Assembly (NCBI GenBank): GCA_947084965.1
Contig: CAMTUG010000001.1
Coordinates: forward strand, 276,206 to 340,205
Direction of reading: 5' to 3'
Source of the DNA: an uncultured Parcubacteria group bacterium
GTDB taxonomy: Bacteria > Patescibacteriota > Patescibacteriia > UBA9934 > CAMTUG01
DNA: 64,000 nt
The notes beneath the pieces were generated by a model. The model saw only the letters and a program-made list of their open reading frames with translations. It was not told where the DNA came from and searched no databases. Position 1 is the stretch's first letter. The number at the start of each line of letters is the position of its first letter. The position numbers and the translations under genes are program-made. Of the stretch, positions 1-60,362 are shown one piece after another.

Positions 1-907
1 AAAGATCAAGAAGCACGCCTTTCACCTGTTGATCTTTTCGATCCTTCTCCTGATCCTAGTTTTTATCCCAGGGATCGGATCGAGCTTTGGAACTTCGCAT
101 AGCTGGATTACGCTTGGCGGACTGTTTTCGATTCAGCCGGCCGAGATCGTCAAGCTGACCTTTTTGTTTTATCTCGCGGCCTGGCTGGAAAAGCGCGGCG
201 GGGTTGTCAAAGATCTGGATGGACTGATGCCGTTTCTGATCGCCCTTGGATCGGTGCTTTTTCTGATCGCCCTTCAGCCAGATACCGGCACCATGGCGGT
301 GATCGCGGGGATGTCGTTCATCGTCTACTTTGTCGCCGGCGCTCCGATTCTTCATTTGGCTGGACTTGGAGGGATTGGGGCGGTCTTTTTGCTCATCCTC
401 ATTAAATCATCGACCTATCGCGCCGAACGATTCATGGCTTTTTTACACCCCGAGCTTGATCCCCAGGGGATCGGGTATCATATTAACCAGGCACTTCTGG
501 CGATTGGCTCTGGTGGGTTATTCGGTTTGGGCTACGGCTTGTCGCGTCAAAAGTTCGAGTACCTGCCGGAAGTCGTCGGAGACTCGATCTTTGCAGTGAT
601 CGCTGAAGAGATGGGATTCGTGATCGCCGCCGGTTTGGTCGTTCTCTTCGTCGCCTTTTTGTGGCGCGGCATGAAAATCGCCAAAGCAGCGCCCGACGCT
701 TTTGGGAAATATTTGGTCGTCGGGGTTGTTTCGTGGATTACGATTCAGGCCTTTGTGAACATCGGTTCGATGACCTCGATCATGCCGATGACCGGAGTGA
801 CGCTGCCATTCGTCAGCTACGGCGGAACGTCGCTCGTAGTGTGTATGTCGGCGGTCGGGGTGGTGCTTAGTGTGTCACGTGGAAACTATGGGAATGCAAA
901 ATCCTAA
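1..907 (+). CDS. ftsW: FtsW/RodA (SEDS) family cell-division/elongation protein, 5'-truncated by the window edge
   Basis: Reading frame is open from position 2. C-terminal SEDS-like motifs are present (GYHINQALLAIGSGGLFGLGYGLS, PEVVGDSIFAVIAEE). It sits immediately upstream of murG, as in dcw clusters. Confidence 0.75.
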   Translation, partial: KIKKHAFHLLIFSILLLILVFIPGIGSSFGTSHSWITLGGLFSIQPAEIVKLTFLFYLAAWLEKRGGVVKDLDGLMPFLIALGSVLFLIALQPDTGTMAVIAGMSFIVYFVAGAPILHLAGLGGIGAVFLLILIKSSTYRAERFMAFLHPELDPQGIGYHINQALLAIGSGGLFGLGYGLSRQKFEYLPEVVGDSIFAVIAEEMGFVIAAGLVVLFVAFLWRGMKIAKAAPDAFGKYLVVGVVSWITIQAFVNIGSMTSIMPMTGVTLPFVSYGGTSLVVCMSAVGVVLSVSRGNYGNAKS

Positions 908-1018
908 ATACGAAACACGAAACACGAAACAATCGGAAAGTTCGAATAGGAAATGTTTGAATATTTTTGATTTACGATTTGATTTTGTTTCGTATTTCGT
1001 ATTTCGTATTTCGTATTT
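908..1018. repeat. Intergenic inverted array of heptamer repeats (ACGAAAC x3 ... TCGTATT x4) forming a long imperfect hairpin between ftsW stop and murG start
   Basis: Seen directly: aaatacgaaacacgaaacacgaaacaatcggaaag ... gttttgtttcgtatttcgtatttcgtatttcgtattt. It is related to the element at 6425-6545. Confidence 0.7.
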
Positions 1019-2098
1019 ATGAAAGTCATGCTCACAGGCGGAGGAACGCTCGGTCCGGTGACGCCGCTTTTGGCGATCGCCGAAGTCTGGCGTCGGGAAG
1101 ATATCCGTGCGGAGTTTGTCTGGATCGGCACACCTGGCGGACCGGAACGGAGCGTTGTCGAAGCGGCCGGGATCCCATTTCATCCTTTGTTTGTTCCTAA
1201 GCTTGATCGTTATGCTCCCGGGAAGTGGGTGTTCATTCCCTTTCGGTTGCTTTGGTCGATGAAGATGGCCCTGCACCTGATTCAACGCGAGCGGCCGGAT
1301 GTGGTGGTGACGGCTGGGGGGTATGTCAGCGTTCCGCTCCTGTGGGCCGCCAAGCTGTACGGCATCCCAACCTGGGTGCATCAGCAAGATGTGCGCGCCG
1401 GACTTGCCAATAAACTCATGGCGCCGTTTGCGACCAAGATTTCCGTCGCTTGGACGCGGTCGCTGCACGCGTTTGATGAGAAAAAGACGATCCATATCGG
1501 GAATCCGGTACGGGATTCTGTTTTGCACGGATCGCAGCAACGCGGGGCGGAGCGATTCGGATTTGATCTGTCGCGTCCAACGGTTCTGGTTTTTGGTGGT
1601 GGCACGGGCGCGGCCTGGATCAATCACGCGATCGCTCAGGTCGTTCCTGAATTGTGTATGACCGCGAATGTTCTGCATATCACCGGGCGAGGGAAGTTGA
1701 CGTCGGTCGAGCCTCGACCAAACTATCAGGCCGTAGAGTTACTCACGACCGAGATGCCGGATGCGCTCGCTCTCGCCGATCTGGTCGTCTGTCGTGCTGG
1801 CATGGCCACGATTTCCGAACTTGCCGCATTAGCCAAACCGGCGATGGTGATTCCGATCCCAGATTCGCACCAAGAAGATAACACCGCCGCCCTAGAAGAA
1901 CTCAGTGCTGCGGTGATTGTTCACCAGGCGCAGACAACGCCGCAGATGCTCTTGCAGCACATCCTTGGTTTTCTTGAGAATCCAGAAGAACGACGTAAGC
2001 TCGGTGCGCGACTGCACGCCGCGTTACCAACCACGGACGTTGCCCTCAAACTGGCGCATCATTTGGAAGCTATGGTAAAACAAGGATCCTCCCGCTAA
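1019..2098 (+). CDS. murG: UDP-N-acetylglucosamine--N-acetylmuramyl-(pentapeptide) pyrophosphoryl-undecaprenol GlcNAc transferase MurG
   Basis: N-terminus MKVMLTGGGTLGPVTPLLAIAE, GT28 architecture, 359 aa, adjacent to ftsW. Confidence 0.85.
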   Translation: MKVMLTGGGTLGPVTPLLAIAEVWRREDIRAEFVWIGTPGGPERSVVEAAGIPFHPLFVPKLDRYAPGKWVFIPFRLLWSMKMALHLIQRERPDVVVTAGGYVSVPLLWAAKLYGIPTWVHQQDVRAGLANKLMAPFATKISVAWTRSLHAFDEKKTIHIGNPVRDSVLHGSQQRGAERFGFDLSRPTVLVFGGGTGAAWINHAIAQVVPELCMTANVLHITGRGKLTSVEPRPNYQAVELLTTEMPDALALADLVVCRAGMATISELAALAKPAMVIPIPDSHQEDNTAALEELSAAVIVHQAQTTPQMLLQHILGFLENPEERRKLGARLHAALPTTDVALKLAHHLEAMVKQGSSR

Positions 2099-2154
2099 CC
2101 AGAAAAGCTCCCCATAAACATGAGAAGCTTTTCTGGTGCGCTGGGCGGGGATCG
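2092..2154. repeat. Copy 1 of a 63-nt direct repeat: murG 3' end, a bidirectional terminator hairpin and the last 21 nt of tRNA-Lys
   Basis: Identical 63-mer at 2092-2154 and 2266-2328: ccgctaaccagaaaagctccccataaacatgagaagcttttctggtgcgctgggcggggatcg. The hairpin is ccagaaaagct...agcttttctgg. Confidence 0.8.
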
Positions 2155-2307: not shown

Positions 2308-2383
2308 TGGTGCGCTGGGCGGGGATCGGACCCGCGACCTTGGGCTTAAAAGGCCCCTGCTCTACCACTGAGCTACCAGCGCA
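2308..2383 (-). tRNA. tRNA-Lys (anticodon TTT), CCA encoded
   Basis: The reverse complement folds as a cloverleaf: acceptor GCGCTGG/CCAGCGC, D-arm GCTCAGTGGTAGAGC, anticodon loop CTTTTAA, T-arm GCGGG-TCCGATC-CCCGC, discriminator A plus CCA. Confidence 0.8.
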
Positions 2384-6424: not shown

Positions 6425-6545
6425 TATGAAAATACGAAATCCGGAAATCGAAATTCGAAACAAATCAGAATCGGAAAGGGAAAATTTCAAACCTTTCACT
6501 TTTTTCTCTTTTCCGATCGTTTCGAATTTCGATATTTGAATTTCG
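6425..6545. repeat. Intergenic inverted-repeat element with TTCGAA(A/T)-type units forming a long hairpin. Related to 908-1018
   Basis: aatcgaaattcgaaac ... gtttcgaatttcgat; tcggaaag ... cttttccga. It shares aatcggaaag and acgaaa units with the ftsW-murG element. Confidence 0.7.
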
Positions 6546-6550
6546 AATAT

Positions 6551-8998
6551 ATGAACAAGGAAGTCCTGTTAAAAAATGAGCTCCCCTCAACGCCTCCTCC
6601 GGGGTACGGCGTGTTAGTGCTGAATCAACTGAAGTCGCCCCTGGTTTATATTTTGCTCGTCGCGGCTGGGTTGTCGGTTGCCGTTCATGAATATTTTGAT
6701 GCCGGCGTTATCTTATTCGCGGTTTTATTGAATACATCGTTAGGGTTTTTACAAGAGTTTAAGGCTTCGCGAGCGCTCGATGCCTTAAAAGCACTGGTGC
6801 AACCGGAAGCTCGGGTCAAGCGAGATGGTAAGATCGTCACGATCGCGGCGCGTGATGTGGTTGTGGGCGACACGCTCGTGCTTGAGACGGGGGATCGTGT
6901 CGCTGCAGATGCAAGAGTTTCCGTCGCGGTTGAATTACAGGTCAACGAATCAACGCTGACCGGAGAATCGATGCCGGTCACCAAAGTTTTTGATGGAAAG
7001 GAACAGGTCTTCATGGGCACAACGATTGTGGCCGGGCGCGGAGAAGCCGTGGTGACAGAGATCGGGATCAATACGCGCCTTGGACAGACGGCGGAGCTGG
7101 TTGCATCGATGGAAGAAGAAGATACACCGCTGCAAACGGAACTTGGGCGACTGTCACAGACGTTGTCGATCGCGGTTTTGGTGATCGGGCTCGTAGTGAT
7201 CGTGATCGGGGTGTCCAAAGGGGGCGAGGTGATCGAGATGGTTACGCTCGCCGCCGCCCTCGCCGTGGCTGCGATTCCCGAAGGACTGCTCGTCGGGCTG
7301 ACCGTTATTTTAGCGATCGGCATGCAGCGGATGCTCAAAGCCAAGGCATTGACGCGGCGTCTCGTCGCGGCTGAAACGCTGGGGAGCGTCTCTGTTATTT
7401 GTACAGATAAAACAGGAACGATCACTAAAGGCGAAATGGAAGTGACCGTAATCGAATCCGAGGATCGAAAAAAAGCGCTCAGGGTTGCCGCGCTCTGCAA
7501 CAACGCCGAACTTGAAGGGATGCAGGTGCGTGGAACGATGACGGAAATGGCCTTACTTACCGCAGCCATGCATGAAGGGTTGGTCAAGGAAGCGCTCGAG
7601 GCAGATTATCCGCGTCTGGATGAACGACCGTTTTCTTCGTCCGCTAAGTTTATGGCGACGCTGCATCGTCACGGGAGTCATAACATGATTCTGTTAAAAG
7701 GGGCTCCAGAGGTCGTTGCCAGTTTTTGTTCGAAGGGAGGAGAGATTGTGTCGCATCATGCCCCGAAGATGACAGAAAAAGGATTGCGGGTGATCGCTTT
7801 GGCGATGAAAGAGGTAGGACAGACAACAACCACGCTGCGGGATGAAGATCTGCACGGGTTGACCTGCGTAGGATTGATCGGGCTCAGCGACCCGATTCGT
7901 CCTGAAGCAGCGCAAACGATCAAAGAAGCCAAGGTCGCCGGGGTGCGCACGATTATCATTACCGGAGATCATCCAAGGACGGCCCAAACGATCGCTGAAC
8001 AGGCGGGGTTTGGTCCAGAGAATAAGCGCGTGATCACAGGTGAGGAACTGGACGCCCTTTCTGAATCTGATTTTGCGCGGCGTCTTTCTTCGATCGATAT
8101 TTATGCCCGTGTGTTGCCGGCGCACAAAGTTCGTATCGTTCAGGCATGGCGTCACGCCGGGGCGTCTGTGGCCATGATCGGAGATGGGGTCAACGATGCG
8201 CCTGCCCTCAAAGCCGCCGACATCGGTGTCGCTTTGGGCAGTGGGACAGAGGTGGCCAAGCAGACAGGGGATATGGTTTTGCTCGATAATAATCTGTCGA
8301 CGTTGGTTCATGCGATCGCTCAGGGCCGAGTCATTTTTGACAACATCCGTAAGGTCGTTGCGTATCTGCTGACAGATAGCTTTACGGAACTGCTCCTGAT
8401 CATCGCCACGTTTCTCATCGGATTGCCGATCCCGATCTTTCCGGCGCAGATTTTGTGGATCAACTTGGTGACCGATGGATTTCCACACATGGCCCTGACG
8501 ATTGAAAAACCTGAACGCGGAATCATGAACGAACCGCCGCGGCCACGCACCGAGCGCGTCATAAACAAAGAGATGCGGGTCATTATTTCGCTCGTCGGTC
8601 TCACCACGGTCGTTCTGCTTCTCGGTCTGTATATCTACCTTCTTTCCACAGAGATGCCGATCGAAAAGATCCGCACGGTCATCTTCACGGCCCTCGGATT
8701 AAACTCGCTTCTGTACGTTCTTTCGATCCGGACCTTCCGTTCATCGATGTTCACCTCAAATCCGTTACAAAATCCTTGGCTCGTCGCATCGATGTTCGTT
8801 GGATTCCTCTTTTTGCTCGCCCCACTCGTGATCCCATCGTTCCGTACTCTGTTCGGTTTTGTGCCGCTGACCTTCCTAGAATTCGGGGCATTAGTTATGC
8901 TAGCCTTAGGACGCCAGCTCTTAACAGAAGCGATCAAGTTTTACTACCATTATGGAAAACGAAAAGAATCCCGAACCGGCATGGCTCTTTCAGCGTAA
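6551..8998 (+). CDS. P-type cation-transporting ATPase, type II Ca2+/Mg2+-like
   Basis: DKTGTIT phosphorylation motif, TGDHPRTA, GDGVNDAPALKAADIGVA, multiple TM segments. Start taken at ATG 6551; an in-frame TTG at 6536 is possible. Confidence 0.85.
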   Translation: MNKEVLLKNELPSTPPPGYGVLVLNQLKSPLVYILLVAAGLSVAVHEYFDAGVILFAVLLNTSLGFLQEFKASRALDALKALVQPEARVKRDGKIVTIAARDVVVGDTLVLETGDRVAADARVSVAVELQVNESTLTGESMPVTKVFDGKEQVFMGTTIVAGRGEAVVTEIGINTRLGQTAELVASMEEEDTPLQTELGRLSQTLSIAVLVIGLVVIVIGVSKGGEVIEMVTLAAALAVAAIPEGLLVGLTVILAIGMQRMLKAKALTRRLVAAETLGSVSVICTDKTGTITKGEMEVTVIESEDRKKALRVAALCNNAELEGMQVRGTMTEMALLTAAMHEGLVKEALEADYPRLDERPFSSSAKFMATLHRHGSHNMILLKGAPEVVASFCSKGGEIVSHHAPKMTEKGLRVIALAMKEVGQTTTTLRDEDLHGLTCVGLIGLSDPIRPEAAQTIKEAKVAGVRTIIITGDHPRTAQTIAEQAGFGPENKRVITGEELDALSESDFARRLSSIDIYARVLPAHKVRIVQAWRHAGASVAMIGDGVNDAPALKAADIGVALGSGTEVAKQTGDMVLLDNNLSTLVHAIAQGRVIFDNIRKVVAYLLTDSFTELLLIIATFLIGLPIPIFPAQILWINLVTDGFPHMALTIEKPERGIMNEPPRPRTERVINKEMRVIISLVGLTTVVLLLGLYIYLLSTEMPIEKIRTVIFTALGLNSLLYVLSIRTFRSSMFTSNPLQNPWLVASMFVGFLFLLAPLVIPSFRTLFGFVPLTFLEFGALVMLALGRQLLTEAIKFYYHYGKRKESRTGMALSA

Positions 8999-14043: not shown

Positions 14044-14935
14044 AGTCATCATTCATCCAAAACAGAAAACGCGCGCGCCTCGCTGGCCCTTCGCGATTTT
14101 ATTCGCGATCGCCTGTGTCGTGTTTGTTTGGTACGGCATGATGTATGGCCATAAGAGTGGTTGGGTCACGCGGTTTATCAGTGTTGTTCTCCCTGTGCCG
14201 GCGGTTGTGGTGAATGATGATACGATCACCTATCGCGATCTGCTGGTGCGGACGGATACGCTGTTATGGTTGAAGGGGGAGGACGCCGATCGCGAAGAGA
14301 CCTTTGCTCAGGCGATTAATGTGCTGATCGAGCAAGCACTTATTGAACAGATCGCTCGTGATTACGACGTCGAAGTGACCCGGGATGATAAGGATGCGGC
14401 GCTCTTGATGCTTGCAGGAGAGCTCGATGAAGATGCGTTTGCAGAAAAGATTCGCGACGAGTTGGATATGAGCTTGCGTCAGTTTGCGCGGGTGGTGGTC
14501 GAACCGCTCGCCTTGGCACAGAAACTTGAAATAGCGATTCATGAAGACGAGGCGACGCAAGCCGAAGTCCAGGCTAAGGCTGAAGAGGCGAGGGATAAGG
14601 TGTTGGCAGGGATGAGTTTTTCTGAAGCAGCAGCGCTCTATTCGCAAGATCCTTCGGGAGCAGAGGGCGGGGATGTTGGCTATATCACCAAAGCGACATT
14701 ACCAGCCGGTTGGGATATGTTGCTGACGTTACCAGAGGAGGGGGTGAGTGGGGTGATTGAAACAGAAGGGGAGTTCGTAATTTTGAAAGTCGCCTGGTTG
14801 GTTGGGGTCGGCGAAGATACACAGATCCGCACTCAGGCGATTATTCTCAAAAAGAAGACACTGTCAGAGATTGTTGCGTCGCGCCGCGAAACGAGTGATA
14901 TTTCGTACGTGGTGAAAAATGTTGATGGGCTCTAG
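14030..14935 (+). CDS. SurA/PrsA-like protein with PpiC (parvulin) peptidyl-prolyl isomerase domain
   Basis: N-terminal TM. C-terminal parvulin-like LAGMSFSEAAALYSQDPSGAEGGDVGYITKATLPAGWDMLLTLPEEGVSGVIETEGEFVILKV. Confidence 0.6.
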   Translation: METAEVIIHPKQKTRAPRWPFAILFAIACVVFVWYGMMYGHKSGWVTRFISVVLPVPAVVVNDDTITYRDLLVRTDTLLWLKGEDADREETFAQAINVLIEQALIEQIARDYDVEVTRDDKDAALLMLAGELDEDAFAEKIRDELDMSLRQFARVVVEPLALAQKLEIAIHEDEATQAEVQAKAEEARDKVLAGMSFSEAAALYSQDPSGAEGGDVGYITKATLPAGWDMLLTLPEEGVSGVIETEGEFVILKVAWLVGVGEDTQIRTQAIILKKKTLSEIVASRRETSDISYVVKNVDGL

Positions 14936-15012
14936 TTGGAGGTGCTTCAAAATACTGTTTTACAGTTCGTTTGAGCACATAATGTCGTCAAACGAACTGT
15001 AAAAGTACTTTT
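14936..15012. repeat. ~77-nt intergenic hairpin element, copy 1. Copy 2 is at 59868-59945
   Basis: ttttacaGTTCGTTTGAgcacataatgtcgTCAAACGAACtgtaaaag: 12-13 bp stem, 13-nt loop. ~85% identical to copy 2, including the flanks. Confidence 0.75.
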
Positions 15013-15034
15013 TAAGACACCCAACCTCGCGCGT

Positions 15035-15451
15035 ATGAAATCCATTCTTTATTTTGACTTCTTTGGCACGATCTACGACGGCACCCGGATCCCTCCGTCT
15101 ATGATTGATGTCATTCGAGAGCTTTCTAAAAGCTCTACCCTTGTGATCGTTTCATCAGCAGGAACTTCGTACATACGTGCGATCGTTGAACGCGAAGGGA
15201 TCGCCAATCATTTCCTCCACATCATGGGCGGTGACACGGGCGGATCAAAGTCAGACAAAATGATCGCGGTCGGGGTGACAGATGCCGTCATGATTACGGA
15301 TACGGCTGGGGATATCCGCGAAGCCAAAAAGGCTGGGGTTCGCGCGATCGGTGTCACCTGGGGATCAGATGCCGCTGAAGACCTTCTGGTGGCGGGGGCG
15401 GATGCTCTTGCTTCGGATGTGAAGGATCTTGCGGGCCTCTTGGCAAAATAA
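15035..15451 (+). CDS. HAD-superfamily hydrolase-like protein, short, with a degenerate motif I
   Basis: FDFFGTIYDG in place of DxDGT. Motifs III/IV ITDTAGDIREAKKAGVRAIGVTWG are present. Confidence 0.5.
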   Translation: MKSILYFDFFGTIYDGTRIPPSMIDVIRELSKSSTLVIVSSAGTSYIRAIVEREGIANHFLHIMGGDTGGSKSDKMIAVGVTDAVMITDTAGDIREAKKAGVRAIGVTWGSDAAEDLLVAGADALASDVKDLAGLLAK

Positions 15452-15555: not shown

Positions 15556-15715
15556 GGAACATCGTAAATTTTGGAACACTGCTTTGTTGCGGGTCCCTGC
15601 CACCTTCGTCGACGCACCTTTCAGTGCGCCTCCTCGGATGGCATCCCGCGCCTCGCATTGTTCTCAAAATTGACGATGTTCCTGGAAGCCAGTCCCGATG
15701 ACTGTTGATTTTGAT

Positions 15716-17429: not shown

Positions 17430-17556
17430 TGAAACGAGGTAAATTCCTCGATTTGCTGCGTTATGGGGCCCCGACGACTCCTCAACGTACCGGCCATGTA
17501 CGTCTTGATCGTCGTCCTCCCCATGCCTTGCAACTCGAGTTTTTACCTCGTTTCAT
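17429..17556. repeat. 128-nt imperfect palindromic long-hairpin element (REP/MITE-like), family copy E1
   Basis: Perfect 15-bp terminal inverted repeats atgaaacgaggtaaa / tttacctcgtttcat. Nested inner stems and an apical hairpin acgtac-cggccat-gtacgt. Related to the element at 27258-27379. Confidence 0.7.
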
Positions 17557-17593
17557 TGACTTAGCATCATCATTGTAGTACTATCCGATCCTT

Positions 17594-27252: not shown

Positions 27253-27257
27253 AATGT

Positions 27258-27379
27258 GGATCTTTAGAAAACTGCGTCTTTTCGTTTCACGGGTCCCGTC
27301 GACCCACTCAACGTAGAATCCCTACGTCTCGCGGGCTCGACACCCGTTCAACGAAAATACATCAGTTTTCTAAAGATCC
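27258..27379. repeat. 122-nt imperfect palindromic long-hairpin element, family copy E2
   Basis: Perfect 17-bp terminal inverted repeats ggatctttagaaaactg / cagttttctaaagatcc. Apical hairpin acgtag-aatcc-ctacgt. Inner motif ccgtcgacccactcaacgta is similar to E1 ccccgacgactcctcaacgta. Confidence 0.7.
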
Positions 27380-29245: not shown

Positions 29246-29456
29246 CGAACAGGATTCAATAAGGCGGGGCACATTTGATGTCGCTCCGTCTTTTGATTTT
29301 GTATCTCGCGCATGTCTGAGTGTCTCAAAGTACTCGCATTCAAAATTTTTGAGCACGAAAAGTAGTCAAAAAGTTTGAAATCAACAATTTTTAAAGTCCA
29401 CATTTCCTTGCACTACACACAACGATCGACTACCCTATGAGTAATTAATTATCACT

Positions 29457-37128: not shown

Positions 37129-37340
37129 CAACGTCGGCGGCGGAGGTGCGAGCTGACGAGTTCTCTTTTCGCGCGCAGTCGTGTCCTTTCTTAGAGACGA
37201 GCACGAAAAGAGTGTCAGCGAGACCGAGTACGACGACGTTTGGTCGCCCTCTCCACGCGCTTCGCAGAATCCCGCCGCGACATAGATTCTTGGCCATTAA
37301 TGTCGCGGACGTGATCCTGCTTCGCGGTGGATCGGGCGAC

Positions 37341-37736
37341 TTAGCTCGTTTTTGCTTTGTGCTTGAGCATTGTTTTGTGTCTTTCCGGCAGCGATTGCCA
37401 GAACAGAGCGATCGTTCCGGTGGCGAGTCCGATGTCGCGGACAGTAATTTCGTTGATACCAGAAACAATCAGAATGCCGACGAGATGCACGGTGGCGAGA
37501 AGGGCGACGACCCACGGCAACAGGTTGATGAGCATCATGAATCCGAGGATGATATCAAAAACCGCTGTGCCGAGAATCGTTTGCACCGGATCGATTGGGA
37601 TCAGTTCACGCACCCAAGGATTGATGAACGCGGCCCAAGTTTGTGGATCGCGGAAGATCAACACCCCGATCCAGATAAAGGTGATCCCCATCCCGACCCG
37701 CAAGATGTGATACGACGCGTTTGGTTTACCGTCCAT
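37341..37736 (-). CDS. DoxX-family membrane protein
   Basis: 4-TM DoxX-like small membrane protein. Confidence 0.55.
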   Translation of the reverse strand: MDGKPNASYHILRVGMGITFIWIGVLIFRDPQTWAAFINPWVRELIPIDPVQTILGTAVFDIILGFMMLINLLPWVVALLATVHLVGILIVSGINEITVRDIGLATGTIALFWQSLPERHKTMLKHKAKTS

Positions 37737-37742
37737 AATATG

Positions 37743-38177
37743 TTAGATGCGTGAAGTTAGAGCGGCGACGTCAAAGCCGCTGATGATAATGATCAGAGCC
37801 ATCAGACCGACGGTGAGCGAAGACATCAAGCACCAAAAGCACCAGTGTTTGACAATCTTCCATTGGATAAAGATGAGGACGAGCGACATGATCGCCGAGC
37901 CACCGACCATGAGTATCAGAAGTTTATTCCACAGATCTGTTGGTCCAACTTGGACGACGAACAGGCCGGAGATGATGCAGACGGCGACATAAAACCCAAA
38001 TCCGAGGATGTCGTTATGCACCCCGAACATACGGTTATACTTGCTTTCCAGGACCGCACGGCATCCGCCGCCGATCGGGCAGACCGGTTTCTCAGATGCG
38101 TAGCGTTTCTCGATAAGGTATGCTGTTTCTGCGATCCCGAACGCGGCCAGGGTGAAAAGAAGGGCGAGTGATGTCAT
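37743..38177 (-). CDS. Vitamin K epoxide reductase (VKOR)-family protein
   Basis: CPIGGGC loop cysteines and CFWC active-site CxxC within a TM helix. Confidence 0.65.
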   Translation of the reverse strand: MTSLALLFTLAAFGIAETAYLIEKRYASEKPVCPIGGGCRAVLESKYNRMFGVHNDILGFGFYVAVCIISGLFVVQVGPTDLWNKLLILMVGGSAIMSLVLIFIQWKIVKHWCFWCLMSSLTVGLMALIIIISGFDVAALTSRI

Positions 38178-39627: not shown

Positions 39628-39644
39628 TTGTGCACAATTTACAA

Positions 39645-39673
39645 TTGACAAATGGAGTTTTTTCTGGTTAAAT
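39645..39673 (+). promoter_or_regulatory. Near-consensus sigma70 promoter (TTGACA-17-TTAAAT) driving the candidate ncRNA
   Basis: Hexamers read directly. Confidence 0.45.
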
Positions 39674-39679
39674 AGAGTG

Positions 39680-39944
39680 ACAATAAGGTAGTAGGGTGCA
39701 AAGGAAGACCCTCGAAATCATTTGATGATCTCGGGGGATTTTGTTTGTCGAGACTTGGGATCCGTGGGCCCTGATACGGTTATCCTGCTGAACCTCATCA
39801 ATTCGGCACGAGGGGTTCGACTCCCCTAGGGTCCACGGCTTCAGGTCTTGACCAAATGTCACTTTTTCTAGTAGGTTTAAATCGATGAGGTTCAGCTGAT
39901 GATACCTATCAGAAACAAAACAGAGCGCAATGGCGCTCTGTTTT
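39680..39944 (+). ncRNA. Candidate structured ncRNA (~265 nt) with a tRNA-like acceptor/T-arm module. Identity unresolved (tmRNA-like, tRNA-derived or novel)
   Basis: Promoter upstream and a strong terminator at 39917-39944 (aaaacagagcgc-aatg-gcgctctgtttt). A perfect T-arm AGGGG-TTCGACT-CCCCT is followed by the acceptor 3' strand AGGGTCC; the 5' strand GGGCCCT (39766-39772) pairs with it. A 13-nt long-range inverted repeat (gctgaacctcatc at 39787-39799, gatgaggttcagc at 39884-39896) is present, plus several local hairpins. Confidence 0.35.
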
Positions 39945-39968
39945 GCAACTCCGTGATAAAATAGTTTC

Positions 39969-41343: not shown

Positions 41344-41688
41344 ATGTCCGAGTCCGTCACCGCCTTCCGTCCCGATCCGGCCAAGATCTACGAGATCACG
41401 CTCCTCGAGGGCGACGTGGATCAGATCTGGAACCTCGCCCACGAAGGGGGTCGTTCGATCCTGCTTCTCGTGCGAGACCAGGCCGATCCCGCCGCGCCCG
41501 AGCAGGGGCTCTCCCTCATCCTCTACTCCGTCGCCTGGGAGGGCGGCGACAAGGAAAACCACCCGAACGAGGTCGTCGTCCGCGGCCGCATCCACGGCCG
41601 TACCGCGGACGAGCCGAACCCGGTGATCGGGTTTTGCTGGGACGACAAGTCCCGGACCGGTCTCCTCAACGTGGTCCTCCCGGTCTAG
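41344..41688 (+). CDS. Hypothetical 114-aa protein, extreme GC3 (cassette gene)
   Basis: AAGGAG SD 5 nt upstream of ATG 41344. G/C-ending codons dominate. Followed by terminator 41744-41802. Confidence 0.6.
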   Translation: MSESVTAFRPDPAKIYEITLLEGDVDQIWNLAHEGGRSILLLVRDQADPAAPEQGLSLILYSVAWEGGDKENHPNEVVVRGRIHGRTADEPNPVIGFCWDDKSRTGLLNVVLPV

Positions 41689-41743
41689 ACGTCCGGGCCT
41701 CGCCCTGCACGTCCGACCGGCTGCGATTCTCGCACCCGCCCCG

Positions 41744-41802
41744 GCATGAGCCCCTCGCTCACACTGCCGCGGTGGGTGCTCATGCTTTTATCGTCTTTTT
41801 TT
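41744..41802 (+). terminator. Rho-independent terminator of cassette gene
   Basis: gcatgagc...gctcatgc stem followed by ttttatcgtcttttttt. Confidence 0.55.
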
Positions 41803-41804
41803 GA

Positions 41805-42983: not shown

Positions 42984-43011
42984 AGAAATTCAAGAGAAAC
43001 AAATCCGGCTC

Positions 43012-43045
43012 ACGGGGCCGGATTTGTGTTTTGGAGTTATCCACA
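43012..43045 (+). terminator. Rho-independent terminator
   Basis: aatccggc-tcacgggg-gccggatt followed by tgtgttttgg. Confidence 0.6.
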
Positions 43046-43074
43046 TTTTGCAACTTTTCTAAGGGAAAAAGGTG

Positions 43075-43103
43075 TTGACGCGTGTCACTGAGTGGAATAG
43101 AAT
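43075..43103 (+). promoter_or_regulatory. dcw-type promoter upstream of mraZ (TTGACG-17-TAGAAT), with a ~145-nt leader carrying GTGGG(G) direct repeats (candidate MraZ boxes)
   Basis: Hexamers read directly. GTGGG at 43122 and GTGGGG at 43133 are spaced ~10 nt apart; a third GTGGGG is at 43189. Confidence 0.5.
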
Positions 43104-43247
43104 GGGGTTACAGGGAACGAAGTGGGTAACTGTGGGGAAGGTCGATCAACGCGTCGGCGTCCTCATTTTTATTCTCCTGTGGGGTACAAAGCAATCGCAA
43201 AACAAAAACAAAAAGTGCCTGCTAAGTAACGTGACCGTGAGTCCACT

Positions 43248-49594: not shown

Positions 49595-50650
49595 ATGCAA
49601 TTCTTCTGGTTTCTTTGGGCGGGTCTCGGGTTTCTCGTTGCCTTCCTAGCGATCCCGTTGATCGCTAGGTTTGCCGAACGCGCCGGAGTGGTAGCTCGGC
49701 CTTCTGGACACCCCAAAGAGGTGCACAAAAGCCCCGTTCCATTGCTTGGTGGGCTCGCAGTTTTTTTAGGTGTCGGTGTGCCCCTCCTGTTGATCTTAGC
49801 GACGAGTGACGCTCTGACCGACGGATTGATCCATGCCAGTCACTATCTTGGGTTTCTTCTTGGCGGTGCGGTTCTCATGATCGGTGGATTTTTAGACGAC
49901 AAATACAACCTCCCTCCCAAGGTCACGATTCTTTTTCCCATGATCGCCGCGGCCACGGCCGTCCTTTTCGGGATCGGGGTTGATCGACTGACAAATCCCT
50001 TTGGTGAAACGCCGTTTTTTCTCGCAGACTGGCAATCTTCTTTGCTGACGTTTGTCTGGTTGATGGTCGTCATGTACACCACAAAGTTTCTTGATGGTCT
50101 CGACGGCTTAGCAAGTGGCGTCAGTGGGATCGGTGCGTTTATGATGTTCTTGCTGGCTGTCACGGTGACGTATTTTCAACCGGACGTGGCATTATTCTCG
50201 TTGATTGCGGTCGGGGCGCTGGCAGCATTTTTTGTCTGGAACTTTCATCCGGCCGTTATTTTTCTTGGTGAAGGCGGGAGTACGTATGTCGGATTTTTAC
50301 TCGGCGTGCTTTCGGTCATCGGTGGAGCCAAACTCGGTACACTCCTTCTCGTTCTGGCTATTCCGTTCCTTGATGTGTTGTGGGTCGTGTTGCGCCGTGT
50401 GTTCGTTGAGCATAAATCACCGACGTCCGGTGACCGCAAGCATCTTCATCATCGTCTGCTTGATCTTGGATTGTCTCAGCGTCAAGTGGTCGTCCTCTAC
50501 GTCGGTGTCGCTGCCGCGTCCGGTATGTCGACCCTTCTGCTTCAAAGTCGCGACAAGATTATTACCTTTGGCGTCATCGCTACGCTGATGATCATCGCCG
50601 CGACCTATATTGTTATCACCAGTCGCAAGCGCCTTGAGCACAACGTATGA
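49595..50650 (+). CDS. Polyprenyl-phosphate HexNAc-1-phosphate transferase family (MraY/WecA-like)
   Basis: 10-11 TM, DDKYNLPP and FLDGLDGLASG motifs; MraY versus WecA not resolved. Confidence 0.65.
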   Translation: MQFFWFLWAGLGFLVAFLAIPLIARFAERAGVVARPSGHPKEVHKSPVPLLGGLAVFLGVGVPLLLILATSDALTDGLIHASHYLGFLLGGAVLMIGGFLDDKYNLPPKVTILFPMIAAATAVLFGIGVDRLTNPFGETPFFLADWQSSLLTFVWLMVVMYTTKFLDGLDGLASGVSGIGAFMMFLLAVTVTYFQPDVALFSLIAVGALAAFFVWNFHPAVIFLGEGGSTYVGFLLGVLSVIGGAKLGTLLLVLAIPFLDVLWVVLRRVFVEHKSPTSGDRKHLHHRLLDLGLSQRQVVVLYVGVAAASGMSTLLLQSRDKIITFGVIATLMIIAATYIVITSRKRLEHNV

Positions 50651-51114
50651 TCAAACGCTCTTGGCGATTGTTGATTCTTCTCGCTGCTATCGTGATCATC
50701 GCGATCATGGTGATGAGGATGTCGTCGCCGTCGATCGGTGTGCCCGATGACGGATCTGTTGCATTCGAAGGTGGACCGATCGTTCCGGTGGAGATCTCGG
50801 ATTCACAAGACGAACAGGTTCGTGGACTCTCGGGGCGCGATGGGCTCGCTCCAGGATCAGGAATGCTCTTTGTCTACGATGATCAAAAGGTCCGGACATA
50901 TTGGATGAAAGAGATGCGTTTCTCGATCGATATTATTTGGATTGCGGACGGACAGGTGATCGGGTTTGTCGAGCGCGCTGTGCCGCCGATCGGTCCGGGC
51001 GACCCGCTTGATCTGTACCGGTCCCCAGAACCCGCTGATCGTGTTCTTGAAGTTGAGGCGGGTTTTATCGAAGAACACGGGGTCTTCATCGGGCAGACGG
51101 TGGTAACCAATTGA
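50647..51114 (+). CDS. DUF192-domain protein
   Basis: GLSGRDGLAPGSGMLFVY...SIDIIWIADGQVIG pattern. Confidence 0.55.
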   Translation: MIKRSWRLLILLAAIVIIAIMVMRMSSPSIGVPDDGSVAFEGGPIVPVEISDSQDEQVRGLSGRDGLAPGSGMLFVYDDQKVRTYWMKEMRFSIDIIWIADGQVIGFVERAVPPIGPGDPLDLYRSPEPADRVLEVEAGFIEEHGVFIGQTVVTN

Positions 51115-58646: not shown

Positions 58647-59867
58647 ATGTTTGAGTCAGTACAAAAGGCCCATTTAATCGGTGTGGGAGGGATAGGCGTT
58701 TCGGCGCTCGGGAAGTTGTTTTTGCATTTGGGGAAAGTGGTTAGCGGATCGGATAGCTATCCAAACGAGCAGGTCGATGCCTTGCGTGCGCTTGGGGCAC
58801 ACGTGACGATCGGTCAGAGTGCAGACAACATCACCGAAGATATCGATCTGATTATTTACTCGCCGGCCGTGCCGGTTGATAATGCTGAACGTGCTCGAGG
58901 ACGAGAACTCGGGTTGATTGAGATGAGCTATCCAGAAGTGCTCGGCGAGATCTGCAAACAAAAACGTTGTGTGGCGATCGCGGGCACGCACGGCAAGTCG
59001 ACCACCACGGCGATGATCGGATTGGTCCTCGAAGCAGCTGGTCTCGATCCACTCGTGATCGTTGGATCAAAAGTGCCGACGTGGAAAGACGGCAACTTGC
59101 GCATGGGGCACGGCGAGATCTTCGTTGTCGAAGCGTGCGAGCACATGGCGAGCTTTCTGAAGCTGCATCCAGAGATCGCGGTCGTTACCAACATCGAAAT
59201 GGATCACCCAGATTTTTATCGCGACCTGGCGCATGTGCAGGAAACGTTTGCGAAATTTAAATTGCAATCTAAGCGCGTGATTGATGCTGGGACATGGTCT
59301 GGTAATCTGTCGCTCAAAGTTCCTGGTGCATTCAATATCGAAAATGCGCGACTGGCCGCGACCGTTGCCAAGGAATTTGATGTGCGTGATGAAGTCATCA
59401 CTGATGCGCTCAACACGTTTACTGGCTTGTGGCGCCGATTTGAGCGCGTCGGGCAGTATCGTGGTGCGGATGTCATCAGTGACTACGCCCATCACCCAAC
59501 GGCGATCGCGAAAACACTTCAAGCGACACGCGAGGCTTTTCCGAATCGACGCATCGTCCTTTGTTTCCAGCCACACCAACACGCTCGCACGAAGGAATTG
59601 TTCAATGCATTTGTTCCTGCGTTTGATAACGCGGATCGGATTATCCTGGTAGAGATTTACGCGGTTGCTGGACGGCTTGAGGTGGCAGGGGAGGTTTCCA
59701 GTAAGGACCTTGCTCGGTCCATTAAGGAACGGGGGAAGGATGTCTCATACGCAGTGGATCTCGTAGATGCGGAGAAACAAGTAAGAGATGTGGTCCAGGC
59801 GGGAGATGTCGTGCTGATCATGGGGGCGGGGGACGTCGATGATGTTGCGCGGAGGATCATAGAATAG
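58647..59867 (+). CDS. murC: UDP-N-acetylmuramate--L-alanine ligase
   Basis: HLIGVGGIGVSALG, GTHGKSTTTAMIG, DYAHHP. Confidence 0.8.
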   Translation: MFESVQKAHLIGVGGIGVSALGKLFLHLGKVVSGSDSYPNEQVDALRALGAHVTIGQSADNITEDIDLIIYSPAVPVDNAERARGRELGLIEMSYPEVLGEICKQKRCVAIAGTHGKSTTTAMIGLVLEAAGLDPLVIVGSKVPTWKDGNLRMGHGEIFVVEACEHMASFLKLHPEIAVVTNIEMDHPDFYRDLAHVQETFAKFKLQSKRVIDAGTWSGNLSLKVPGAFNIENARLAATVAKEFDVRDEVITDALNTFTGLWRRFERVGQYRGADVISDYAHHPTAIAKTLQATREAFPNRRIVLCFQPHQHARTKELFNAFVPAFDNADRIILVEIYAVAGRLEVAGEVSSKDLARSIKERGKDVSYAVDLVDAEKQVRDVVQAGDVVLIMGAGDVDDVARRIIE

Positions 59868-59945
59868 TTGGGTACGCAAAAATCACTTTTACAACTCGTT
59901 TGAGCACAAAATGTATTCAAACGAACTGAAAACTTACTTTATGGA
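59868..59945. repeat. ~78-nt intergenic hairpin element, copy 2 (see 14936-15012)
   Basis: ttttacaaCTCGTTTGAgcacaaaatgtatTCAAACGAactgaaaac. It starts right after a TAG stop, as copy 1 does. Confidence 0.75.
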
Positions 59946-60360
59946 CACACCCATCACTCTCTTCACAAAATTTCTTAATCGCGTCGGCGAGACGTCGGGT
60001 CAGCTTCTCTATCTTTCCTGCGGGGATGAACCGGCAATGAAGGAGCTTGCGGAAAAGGGGTATGACGTCGAAGCGTTCTGCCCGACCGTCACCGATGCGT
60101 GGCCGCAAAAAGATGACACCTACCATCTCGCGGTCGACACGTCGTTCTTCAAAAATCTTACGGATCCAGAAGAACGCGCTTACTGGCGCCGTGAGTTAAC
60201 CCGCGTTCTTCGAGAAGATTCTCTCGCTCTGGTTGTTCTTGGTGACATGATTGATCTCGATGATGCGGAAGCATTACTTGCTCCAGAGTTTAAAGTCGTC
60301 AACTACGATGGCCCGGCGTTCATCTTCAAAAAAGACGCGATCACCGTTTCTCAGGAGTAA
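59941..60360 (+). CDS. Hypothetical protein
   Basis: ORF. Start moved to ATG 59941 because the upstream ATG 59911 lies in the repeat hairpin loop. Confidence 0.4.
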   Translation: MDTPITLFTKFLNRVGETSGQLLYLSCGDEPAMKELAEKGYDVEAFCPTVTDAWPQKDDTYHLAVDTSFFKNLTDPEERAYWRRELTRVLREDSLALVVLGDMIDLDDAEALLAPEFKVVNYDGPAFIFKKDAITVSQE

Positions 60361-60362
60361 GT

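What the first reader, a model, noticed from the sequence alone, without database searches (positions are those of the whole stretch)
14936..15012. Repeated ~80-nt intergenic element with conserved TTCGTTTGA-N13-TCAAACGAA hairpin, found twice
Two copies (14936-15012 and 59868-59945) are ~85% identical over ~80 nt. Both begin immediately after a TAG stop, and both lie ~30 nt upstream of a start codon. The stem is conserved with a GCACA-AATGT loop.

The 9-bp inverted repeat with a 13-nt spacer also resembles a dimeric transcription-factor operator. This suggests a small regulon (HAD-like hydrolase and an unknown 140-aa protein) or a mobile terminator-promoter module.
Basis: seen in the sequence. 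Interest (0 to 1): 0.55.

Follow-up and report, generated by a model that had tools for sequence, protein, structure and literature searches.

The report
Repeated hairpin at gene boundaries
A small family of four look-alike DNA palindromes, each able to fold into a hairpin with the same loop, sits at boundaries between neighbouring genes in an uncultivated Patescibacteria genome; it is real and matches no catalogued family, but it is confined to this lineage and its function is still a guess.

Summary
The exact string TTGAGCAC-N9-TCAA occurs four times in the window, all on the + strand, against about 0.008 expected by chance. The copies are c1 (14934-15027), c2 (59866-59960), c3 (29316-29406) and c4 (50615-50675).

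- All four share a 4-5 bp closing stem and a 13-nt loop that begins GCAC.
- The lower stem differs in sequence between c1/c2, c3 and c4. It stays clearly complementary in c3; the support for c4 is modest.
- c1 and c2 also share a ~90-bp palindrome that starts in the upstream TAG stop codon.
- c4 lies inside coding DNA, at the ATGA stop/start overlap of two genes.

The downstream genes are unrelated: a cap-less HAD, an ORFan, a membrane-anchored unknown and a DUF192 protein. No promoter was found in the elements, and no nearby regulator gene apart from MraZ. There was no target-site duplication, no Rfam match, and no copy in about 70 kb from relatives or in public collections.

Best guess (0.35): a sense-strand RNA stem-loop at cistron boundaries, recognised through its loop. 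Rivals are a selfish palindromic repeat, a transcription-factor operator, a plain terminator and an ssDNA-level site. Interest is modest.

The parts
14934..15027 (+). Copy c1, a ~90-nt imperfect palindrome that fills the gap between the PpiC/SurA-like gene and the HAD-like gene. The core hairpin is 14959-15003, with a 17-bp perfect stem and a 13-nt loop GCACATAATGTCG at 14975-14987. The outer pairing GTTGG/CCAAC starts at the G of the TAG stop.
   Evidence: (-37.5 kcal/mol, z = -7.2).
59866..59960 (+). Copy c2, the same ~90-nt palindrome after murC. The stem TCGTTTGA/TCAAACGA is intact. The lower stem is weakened by two transitions and one indel. The loop is GCACAAAATGTAT at 59904-59916. The right end overlaps the start of the next ORF.
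   Evidence: (-17.3 kcal/mol, z = -2.3).
29316..29406 (+). Copy c3, a diverged copy with core hairpin 29339-29380 (TTCAAAATTTTTGA / GCACGAAAAGTAG / TCAAAAAGTTTGAA). The core is 19/23 identical to c1 and the left flank about 70%. The lower arms are only 7/22 identical yet remain complementary.
50615..50675 (+). Copy c4, the apical module only (CTTGA GCACAACGTATGA TCAAACG, 50633-50659), on its own GC-rich extended stem. It lies inside coding DNA, and the 13-nt loop holds the ATGA stop/start overlap of the GT4 (MraY-like) and DUF192 genes.
   Evidence: family D7; -18.3 kcal/mol, z = -2.0.
15035..15451 (+). Gene downstream of c1: a 138-aa HAD-like protein that lacks the cap domain and has F in place of the second Asp of motif I. 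Its start is ambiguous, because another public gene call starts at 15101.
59911..60360 (+). Gene downstream of c2: an ORFan of 149 aa if started at the loop ATG (59911) or 139 aa if started at ATG 59941. There is one partial homologue (75% identity) in the whole protein collection, and a faint resemblance to SAM-dependent methyltransferases.
29261..29300 (+). Ordinary intrinsic terminator of the SIMPL/DUF541 gene, with a GC-rich stem followed by TTTTGATTTT. It lies just upstream of c3, which shows that c3 is not needed for termination.
   Evidence: -22.4 kcal/mol, z = -5.4.

Best explanation
The finding is one member of a four-copy, same-strand family of hairpin-forming palindromes. The family is specific to this Patescibacteria lineage, whose closest named relatives are Uhrbacteria-like.

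Anatomy. Every copy has the same apical module: a 4-5 bp closing stem (T)TTGA/TCAA(A) around a 13-nt loop that begins GCAC. This module sits on a lower stem whose sequence differs between c1/c2, c3 and c4. That stem stays clearly complementary in c3; the support for c4 is modest. All four copies lie at boundaries between co-directional genes, in the sense orientation.

Proposed mechanism. I think the element is most likely transcribed as part of the flanking polycistronic mRNA and acts as an RNA stem-loop. A lineage-specific factor, a ribonuclease or an RNA-binding protein, would recognise the conserved loop and closing stem. That would define a processing, 3'-end or stability point, or gate translation of the next cistron. 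This organism shows no Shine-Dalgarno signal, and in c2 and c4 an in-frame AUG for the downstream ORF sits in the loop.

c1 and c2 additionally share about 90 nt of palindrome because they are recent duplicates of one another.

Shown: the sequences, the palindromes, the heterogeneous conservation, the complementarity of c3's arms, the positions and the orientation.
Inferred: that the element is transcribed, that it acts at the RNA level, that a binding factor exists, and what the outcome is.
For: - Copy number. The exact pattern TTGAGCAC-N9-TCAA occurs four times, all on the + strand. With 12 specified bases, about 0.008 matches are expected in 128 kb of two-strand sequence. The 14-base palindromic pattern with up to 2 mismatches gives the same four sites, against 0.03 in shuffles.
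- Uneven conservation. Between c1 and c3 the core is 19/23 identical and the lower arms 7/22 (Fisher p = 8e-4). The c3 arms still pair at 9 of 13 positions (shuffle p = 0.01). Five pairs differ on both sides, against 0-2 in the slid controls.
- c4. It carries the same module, with the same 13-nt loop length, on an unrelated GC-rich stem inside coding DNA (z = -2.0). The orthologous junction in relative L005 has neither the motif nor a hairpin.
- Orientation and position. All four copies are co-oriented with the flanking genes and sit at cistron boundaries.
- No promoter. No sigma-70-like promoter was found in or beside c1-c3, although clear extended -10 promoters are visible elsewhere in the window.
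- c3 follows a canonical terminator, so it is not simply that gene's terminator.
- Translation context. An SD-like motif lies upstream of 6 of 47 starts, which equals the 14% background. Start-site accessibility is therefore a plausible control point.
- The loop is strand-asymmetric. GC follows TTGA in all four copies but is not mirrored before TCAA.
Against: - Only four copies from one genome are available, and c1 and c2 are not independent.
- No transcript data exist.
- Counts of G-U against A-C give no support for the sense strand. The two transitions in c2 break pairs in the + strand RNA but would be G-U pairs in the - strand RNA. The - strand folds slightly better in all four copies.
- Hairpin stability is very uneven: z = -7 for c1, about -2 for c2, c3 and c4. 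A structure under uniform selection would be expected to be more even.
- The + strand is also the leading strand throughout the window, since cumulative GC skew rises monotonically. The shared orientation may therefore reflect replication rather than transcription.
- Palindromes can keep their symmetry through template-switch repair without any selection on RNA.
- No candidate binding protein was identified.
- Distances to the next start codon vary: about 0, 31, 54 and 98 nt.
Confidence: 0.35

Rival explanations
1. A selfish, non-autonomous palindromic repeat of the MITE, REPIN or RPE type. It spreads or is copied into gene-boundary positions and has no dedicated function. Any terminator-like or structural effect is incidental.
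For: - c1 and c2 are similar over about 90 nt, far more than any binding site needs. The similarity includes inverted-repeat-like ends, GGTG(C/T)(T/C)T(C/T)AAAA..TACT, which c3 partly shares.
- One copy is pristine and the others are decayed, as expected for copies of different ages.
- The family is absent from about 70 kb of relatives with 65-73% MurC identity.
- The downstream genes are lineage-specific or degenerate.
- The murC-NUDIX gap that holds c2 has different content in every relative.
- The window holds at least one other family of long AT-rich palindromes in similar gaps.
- Rickettsia RPEs show that such elements can sit in frame inside genes (established knowledge). That could account for c4, where the window has about 6 extra codons relative to L005.
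Against: - There is no target-site duplication at any copy (read directly).
- The centre and loop are the best-conserved part and the arms the worst. This is the reverse of MITEs and REPINs, where the ends or arms are recognised and the loops drift.
- c4 carries only the ~28-nt core, not the 90-nt unit.
- No transposase, RAYT or integrase domain was found among the roughly 60 window ORFs scanned.
- Four copies per 64 kb is a low density.
Confidence: 0.25
2. An operator for a dimeric DNA-binding regulator. The protein would bind the duplex palindrome TTTGAnnAC-N5-GTnnTCAAA near the starts of four genes.
For: - A 23-bp two-fold symmetric consensus is matched exactly in c1, c2 and c3, and with 2 mismatches in c4.
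- Half-site centres are about two helical turns apart.
- The sites lie 0-98 nt upstream of start codons, in a genome with short or absent leaders.
- The lack of strand preference in the G-U counts fits a DNA-level site.
Against: - No promoter is detectable at c1, c2 or c3, and c4 sits inside an operon at a stop/start overlap.
- The continued complementarity of the diverged lower arms in c3 (p = 0.01) has no explanation under this model. The extended stem in c4 is similarly unexplained.
- The invariant GC on the left half is not mirrored on the right.
- The target genes are functionally unrelated.
- The only recognisable regulator in the window is MraZ. From established knowledge it binds TGGGN direct repeats, and such repeats are visible upstream of mraZ.
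- The motif is absent upstream of anything in the relatives.
Confidence: 0.2
3. Ordinary factor-independent (bidirectional) transcription terminators that happen to share ancestry.
For: - c1 and c2 start at the upstream stop codon.
- An A-run precedes each hairpin and a T-run follows it: TTTTT, TTTAT and TTTTT in c1, c2 and c3.
- c1 is a very stable hairpin at the end of the murF-murE-divIC-ppiC gene run, with no other terminator before the tRNA genes.
Against: - None of the copies passes the terminator scan.
- The genome's clear terminators have GC-rich stems and 4-nt loops. These elements have AT-rich stems and 13-nt loops.
- The T-run is 4-9 nt from the stem in c1 and c3.
- c3 follows a canonical terminator.
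- c2 would cut off murB and two NUDIX genes, which have no promoter of their own.
- c4 has no T-run and lies in coding DNA.
- A terminator has no need for a conserved loop.
Confidence: 0.08
4. A single-stranded-DNA or cruciform site, recognised during replication by a DNA enzyme such as a HUH/Y1 transposase of the IS200/IS605 or RAYT kind, or a recombinase.
For: - The hairpin potential is kept while the arm sequence changes, and the loop is conserved.
- No RNA-strand preference is seen.
- All copies have the same orientation relative to the leading strand.
Against: - No such enzyme is present in the window.
- No conserved cleavage tetranucleotide is shared by all copies.
- There are very few copies.
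- The strong bias towards gene boundaries fits expression-level roles better.
Confidence: 0.07

Closest known systems
REP / REPIN elements (E. coli, Pseudomonas) and their RAYT transposases
   Same: Short palindromic repeats that form hairpins and sit at gene ends. Compensatory arm changes have been reported for REPINs. They can act as mRNA 3' stabilisers.
   Different: REPINs keep their arms and let the loop vary, whereas here the loop and closing stem are the most conserved part. Copy number is tiny. One copy is in coding DNA. No RAYT gene is seen in the window, and the rest of the genome could not be tested.
Bacterial MITEs (Correia, RUP, Rickettsia RPE)
   Same: c1 and c2 are ~90-bp units with inverted-repeat-like ends, found at gene boundaries. 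RPEs can also lie in frame within genes.
   Different: There is no target-site duplication. The ends are less conserved than the centre. c4 has only the core. No parent transposase was seen.
Intrinsic bidirectional terminators
   Same: A hairpin flanked by an A-run and a T-run, placed directly after a stop codon in c1 and c2.
   Different: The stem is AT-rich and 17 bp long, with a 13-nt conserved loop, and the T-run is not adjacent to the stem. The elements fail the scan that finds this genome's own GC-rich terminators with 4-nt loops.
Translational operator hairpins of RNA phages (MS2/PP7 coat protein-replicase operator) and other protein-bound mRNA stem-loops at start codons
   Same: A sequence-specific loop on a stem whose sequence may vary. 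A start codon lies in or next to the hairpin in c2 and c4.
   Different: No binding protein is known. c3 has no AUG in its loop. In c1 and c3 the annotated start is 54 and 98 nt away. This resemblance comes from general knowledge and was not tested.
Integron attC sites
   Same: Imperfect palindromes of about 60-140 bp next to small ORFan-like genes, with structure more conserved than sequence.
   Different: The end motifs are in the opposite order: GTTGGRK...CCAAC here, against RYYYAAC...GTTRRRY in attC. The sites are isolated rather than arrayed, and no integrase is present in the window.

Membership tests
Any Rfam family | Score at or above the family's gathering threshold | tested here: not met
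   Searches cover the whole window, and one search covers the c1 region at E<=10. The only hits are generic miRNA-precursor hairpins at 11-28 bits, against thresholds of 60-140 bits.
Intrinsic terminator | Short GC-rich stem, loop of 3-8 nt, and a T-run within 0-2 nt of the stem | tested here: not met
   None of c1-c3 is called by the scan. c4 has no T-run. The canonical terminators of this genome look different.
MITE | Terminal inverted repeats | tested here: inconclusive
   The ends of c1, c2 and c3 are related and mutually inverted, at roughly 70% identity with gaps in AT-rich sequence. c4 has no such ends.
MITE | Target-site duplication flanking each copy | tested here: not met
   The flanks were read directly. 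No direct repeat of 2-10 bp brackets any copy.
MITE / REPIN | A cognate transposase or RAYT gene in the genome, and many copies | not testable with these tools
   Only 64 kb of the 476,519-bp source contig could be read. No transposase domain was found among the window ORFs scanned.
REPIN | Arms (the REP units) conserved, loop or spacer variable | tested here: not met
   The pattern is the opposite. Between c1 and c3 the core is 19/23 identical and the arms 7/22.
Integron attC | R'' (RYYYAAC) at the 5' end and R' (GTTRRRY) at the 3' end of the palindrome | tested here: not met
   Both strands read GTTGG...CCAAC, which is the reversed order (read directly).
Integron attC | An array of cassettes, or an adjacent integron integrase | tested here: not met
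   The copies are 14-21 kb apart. No tyrosine recombinase is present among the window ORFs scanned.
Transcription-factor operator | Two-fold symmetric site overlapping or adjoining a promoter | tested here: inconclusive
   The symmetric consensus is present. No promoter-like site was found at c1-c3, but the scan is simple.
Transcription-factor operator | Conservation upstream of orthologous genes in related genomes | tested here: not met
   The motif is absent from L005, L007, L010, L015 and L016. The orthologous murC and GT4/DUF192 junctions lack it.
TIGR array / CRISPR array | Tandem interspaced units next to a Tas (Nop-domain) or Cas gene | tested here: not met
   The copies are solitary and tens of kb apart. 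No tandem family was found, and no Nop or Cas domain was found. The definition is taken from PMC12045711.

The most novel reading that the evidence does not exclude
The hairpins are operators of a post-transcriptional regulon in a Shine-Dalgarno-less CPR bacterium. A lineage-specific RNA-binding protein or endoribonuclease would recognise the UUGA-GCAC...-UCAA apical module in polycistronic mRNAs. It would thereby uncouple or gate expression of the downstream cistron, in two cases by acting on a start codon displayed in the loop.
Probability: 0.15. Interest if true: 0.6.

Novelty: new member of a known kind. Interest (0 to 1): 0.35.

Why it matters
Very little is known about cis-regulatory signals in Patescibacteria. 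These bacteria are uncultivated, have reduced genomes, and in this case show no Shine-Dalgarno signal. A hairpin module with a conserved loop that recurs at cistron boundaries, once even across a stop/start overlap, would be a concrete handle on how such organisms punctuate or tune polycistronic transcripts. If it is instead a selfish palindrome, it documents repeat proliferation in a streamlined genome. In either case the present evidence is four copies in one lineage, so the value is that of a lead and not of a finding with broad reach.

Tried and rejected
- Exact-core scans of genome contigs and metagenome contigs gave only unrelated chance hits, with no flanking similarity.
- A viral-contig scan and distant blastn against the plasmid and phage collections gave nothing.
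- Reaching the rest of the source contig failed. Look-ups return only Logan contigs identical to the window.
- The orthologous murC loci in relatives (L005-L012, L015) lack the element.
- The only homologue of the ORFan sits on a 1-kb contig that starts inside the gene.
- The HAD homologue locus L016 is not orthologous.
- Promoter hexamers were looked for by eye and by scan. No consistent -35/-10 pair with legal spacing was found on either strand.
- An apparent rule that the hairpin base ends 8 nt before the start codon did not survive refolding with other windows.
- The loose loop pattern GCACR-N1-7-RTGT is not enriched: 16 matches against 12.5 expected. The similar loop in the terminator at 29269 is therefore treated as chance.
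- The 12-nt match between c3 and 37198-37209 is at chance level.
- The strand test by G-U against A-C counts was uninformative.
- Resemblances recalled from memory to CIRCE, CtsR boxes, the LexA/Cheo box, parS, DnaA boxes, sigma-54 promoters, IHF sites and the EcoKI site each failed on spacing or key bases. They were not pursued further.
- attC, TIGR and CRISPR readings were rejected (see the membership tests).

Full report
**Observation.** Both reported copies are present. They are 81% identical over 64 ungapped nt and 82% identical by mean column identity over a 107-column alignment. The pattern TTCGTTTGA-N13-TCAAACGAA is exact in copy 1 and has one mismatch in copy 2; two matches were found against 0.08 expected. 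Each copy begins right after a TAG stop.

In c1 the stem is 17 perfect base pairs around a 13-nt loop. The whole 99-nt gap, from the G of TAG (14935) to about 15027, is one imperfect palindrome (-37.5 kcal/mol, z = -7.2). c2 is the same unit but decayed by two transitions and one indel in the lower stem (-17.3 kcal/mol, z = -2.3). Its right end overlaps the next ORF. One candidate ATG is at 59941, and the ATG used by the public gene calls (59911) lies in the loop.

**More copies.** The centre pattern TTTGAGCACANAATGTNNTCAAA with up to 3 mismatches finds a third site at 29348-29370, with 0.00 expected. The exact pattern TTGAGCAC-N9-TCAA finds four sites, at 14971, 29349, 50634 and 59900, all on the + strand. 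Its 12 specified bases give about 0.008 chance matches. A 14-base symmetric pattern with up to 2 mismatches finds the same four sites, against 0.03 in shuffles. Covariance models built from three copies (R1) and from four copies (R2) find no fifth member in the window.

**Anatomy of the family.** All four copies share (T)TTGA / 13-nt loop starting GCAC / TCAA(A).

- c3 (29316-29406) resembles c1 in the core (19/23) and in the left flank (about 70%; the right flank is weaker, 14 of 25), but not in the lower arms (7/22; Fisher p = 8e-4). Those arms nevertheless still pair at 9 of 13 positions (shuffle p = 0.01). Five pairs differ on both sides, against 0-2 in the slid controls.
- c4 (50615-50675) has only the apical module, on an unrelated GC-rich extended stem (-18.3 kcal/mol, z = -2.0). 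It lies in coding DNA, and its loop holds the ATGA stop/start overlap of a GT4 (MraY-like) gene and a DUF192 gene.
- The orthologous junction in relative L005 has neither the motif nor a hairpin. The window has about six extra codons at that junction.

**Context.** The window comes from a Patescibacteria genome. The best named MurC hits are Patescibacteria and Uhrbacteria MAGs, and the source contig is 476,519 bp. The region is rich in cell-wall and division genes: FtsW, MurG, UppS, several Mur ligases, DivIC, MraZ/MraW, MurC and MurB.

All four copies sit between co-directional + strand genes:

| Copy | Upstream gene | Downstream gene |
|---|---|---|
| c1 | PpiC-like | cap-less HAD |
| c2 | MurC | ORFan |
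| c3 | SIMPL/DUF541 | membrane-anchored unknown |
| c4 | GT4 (MraY-like) | DUF192 |

- The downstream genes are functionally unrelated, and two are lineage-specific oddities. The HAD homologues are 214-229 aa and at most 40% identical. The ORFan has a single partial homologue among 5.8 billion clusters and a faint methyltransferase match.
- The murC-NUDIX gap that holds c2 differs in every relative. It contains DUF5678 plus a 133-aa ORF, or a NYN gene, or nothing, or an unrelated hairpin.
- The genome's clear promoters are of the extended -10 type. Its clear terminators have GC-rich stems with 4-nt loops.
- None of c1-c3 scores as a promoter or a terminator.
- c3 lies just after a strong canonical terminator.
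- SD-like motifs precede 6 of 47 starts, equal to the 14% background.

**Spread.** The element has no Rfam match. It has no match in viral contigs, plasmids or phages. The genome and metagenome collection scans gave only chance hits. About 70 kb from relatives with 65-73% MurC identity contains no copy. The rest of the source genome could not be retrieved.

**Interpretation.**
- The conserved centre, the diverged but still complementary lower arms in c3, and more weakly the extended stem in c4, argue that hairpin formation itself matters. They also argue that something reads the loop and closing stem.
- This fits poorly with a simple duplex operator. Such a model gives no reason for arm complementarity, no promoter is visible, and the target genes are unrelated.
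- It also fits poorly with MITEs or REPINs. Those conserve their ends or arms rather than the loop, and here there is no target-site duplication.
- It fits poorly with plain terminators as well. The loop is conserved, c3 is redundant for termination, and c2 and c4 sit inside tightly packed co-directional gene runs.
- The sense orientation of all four copies and their position at cistron boundaries favour an RNA stem-loop in the mRNAs, recognised by a lineage-specific protein or RNase. I give this 0.35.

**Caveats.**
- There are only four copies, and two of them are recent duplicates.
- Stability is very uneven across copies.
- The G-U against A-C counts do not favour the sense strand.
- The + strand is also the leading strand across the window.
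- Palindromes can maintain their symmetry by template switching.
- The ~90-nt similarity of c1 and c2, and their decay pattern, are what a selfish repeat would show (rival, 0.25).
- The remaining rivals are a transcription-factor operator (0.2), a plain terminator (0.08) and an ssDNA-level site (0.07).

**Comparison and novelty.** The closest known kinds are REP/REPIN elements, MITEs, bidirectional terminators, protein-bound mRNA operator hairpins and attC sites. Each defining feature that could be tested was either not met or inconclusive (see the membership table). I therefore do not file the element under any of them. I classify it as a new, lineage-restricted member of the general class of repeated hairpin-forming gene-boundary elements. 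Interest is modest. The element is real, and c4 makes it curious, but the sample is tiny and the function is inferred.

Noticed in passing
window 892-1022 and 6430-6548: A second, unrelated family of long AT-rich palindromes built from ACGAAAC / GTTTCGT(A) heptamer-like units. They fill the 111-nt FtsW-MurG gap and the GT1 to P-type ATPase gap from stop to start (-40 and -41 kcal/mol, z about -5). The two copies are about 72-86% alike.
   Followed up: partly
window 2091-2154 and 2265-2328: A 64-nt exact direct repeat, 174 nt apart. The second copy overlaps the 3' end of tRNA-Lys (2308-2382, minus strand). It looks like an att-type duplication of a tRNA end plus its terminator.
   Followed up: no
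window 39628-39968: A 341-nt gap before uvrC that holds a tRNA-like element at 39765-39835 (T-arm GGGGTTCGACTCCCC). It gets only sub-threshold tRNA-Sec/mascRNA-like Rfam hits and is not called by ARAGORN. It may be a divergent tmRNA or a tRNA-like RNA. A clean terminator lies at 39916-39945.
   Followed up: partly
window 37132-37216 and L013 11228-11312 (just beyond the window's right end, after the S30AE gene): An 85-nt non-coding repeat, 94% identical between the two places, that contains a hairpin (CTCTTTTCGCGC...GCACGAAAAGAG). The 202-aa ORF listed at 37146-37754 looks spurious.
   Followed up: no
window 17430-17593 and 15556-15715 (also 41627-41804, 27253-27361): GC-rich, apparently structured intergenic blocks. 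The first two are bounded by 14-18 nt inverted repeats, for example TGAAACGAGGTAAA...TTTACCTCGTTTCA. There is no Rfam match and no significant similarity between blocks.
   Followed up: partly
murC-NUDIX gap: window 59868-60362; L005 11228-11861; L007 7333-7445; L010 11233-11235; L015 1723-2266: This gap is a hot spot of gene-content change among relatives. It contains an ORFan, or DUF5678 plus a 133-aa ORF, or a NYN gene, or nothing. In L007 it contains an unrelated hairpin with a 16-bp stem at 7340-7416.
   Followed up: partly
whole window (47 gene starts): There is no Shine-Dalgarno enrichment upstream of start codons (6 of 47, against a 14% background). Most starts are preceded by T at -1 (..TATG). 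Several promoters are of the extended -10 type (TGnTAnAnT) and lie very close to the start codon, for example about 58625 before murC.
   Followed up: partly
window 42984-43247: Upstream of mraZ there is a good -35/-10 pair (TTGACG...TAGAAT), followed by TGGGG/TGGGT direct repeats that look like MraZ boxes.
   Followed up: no
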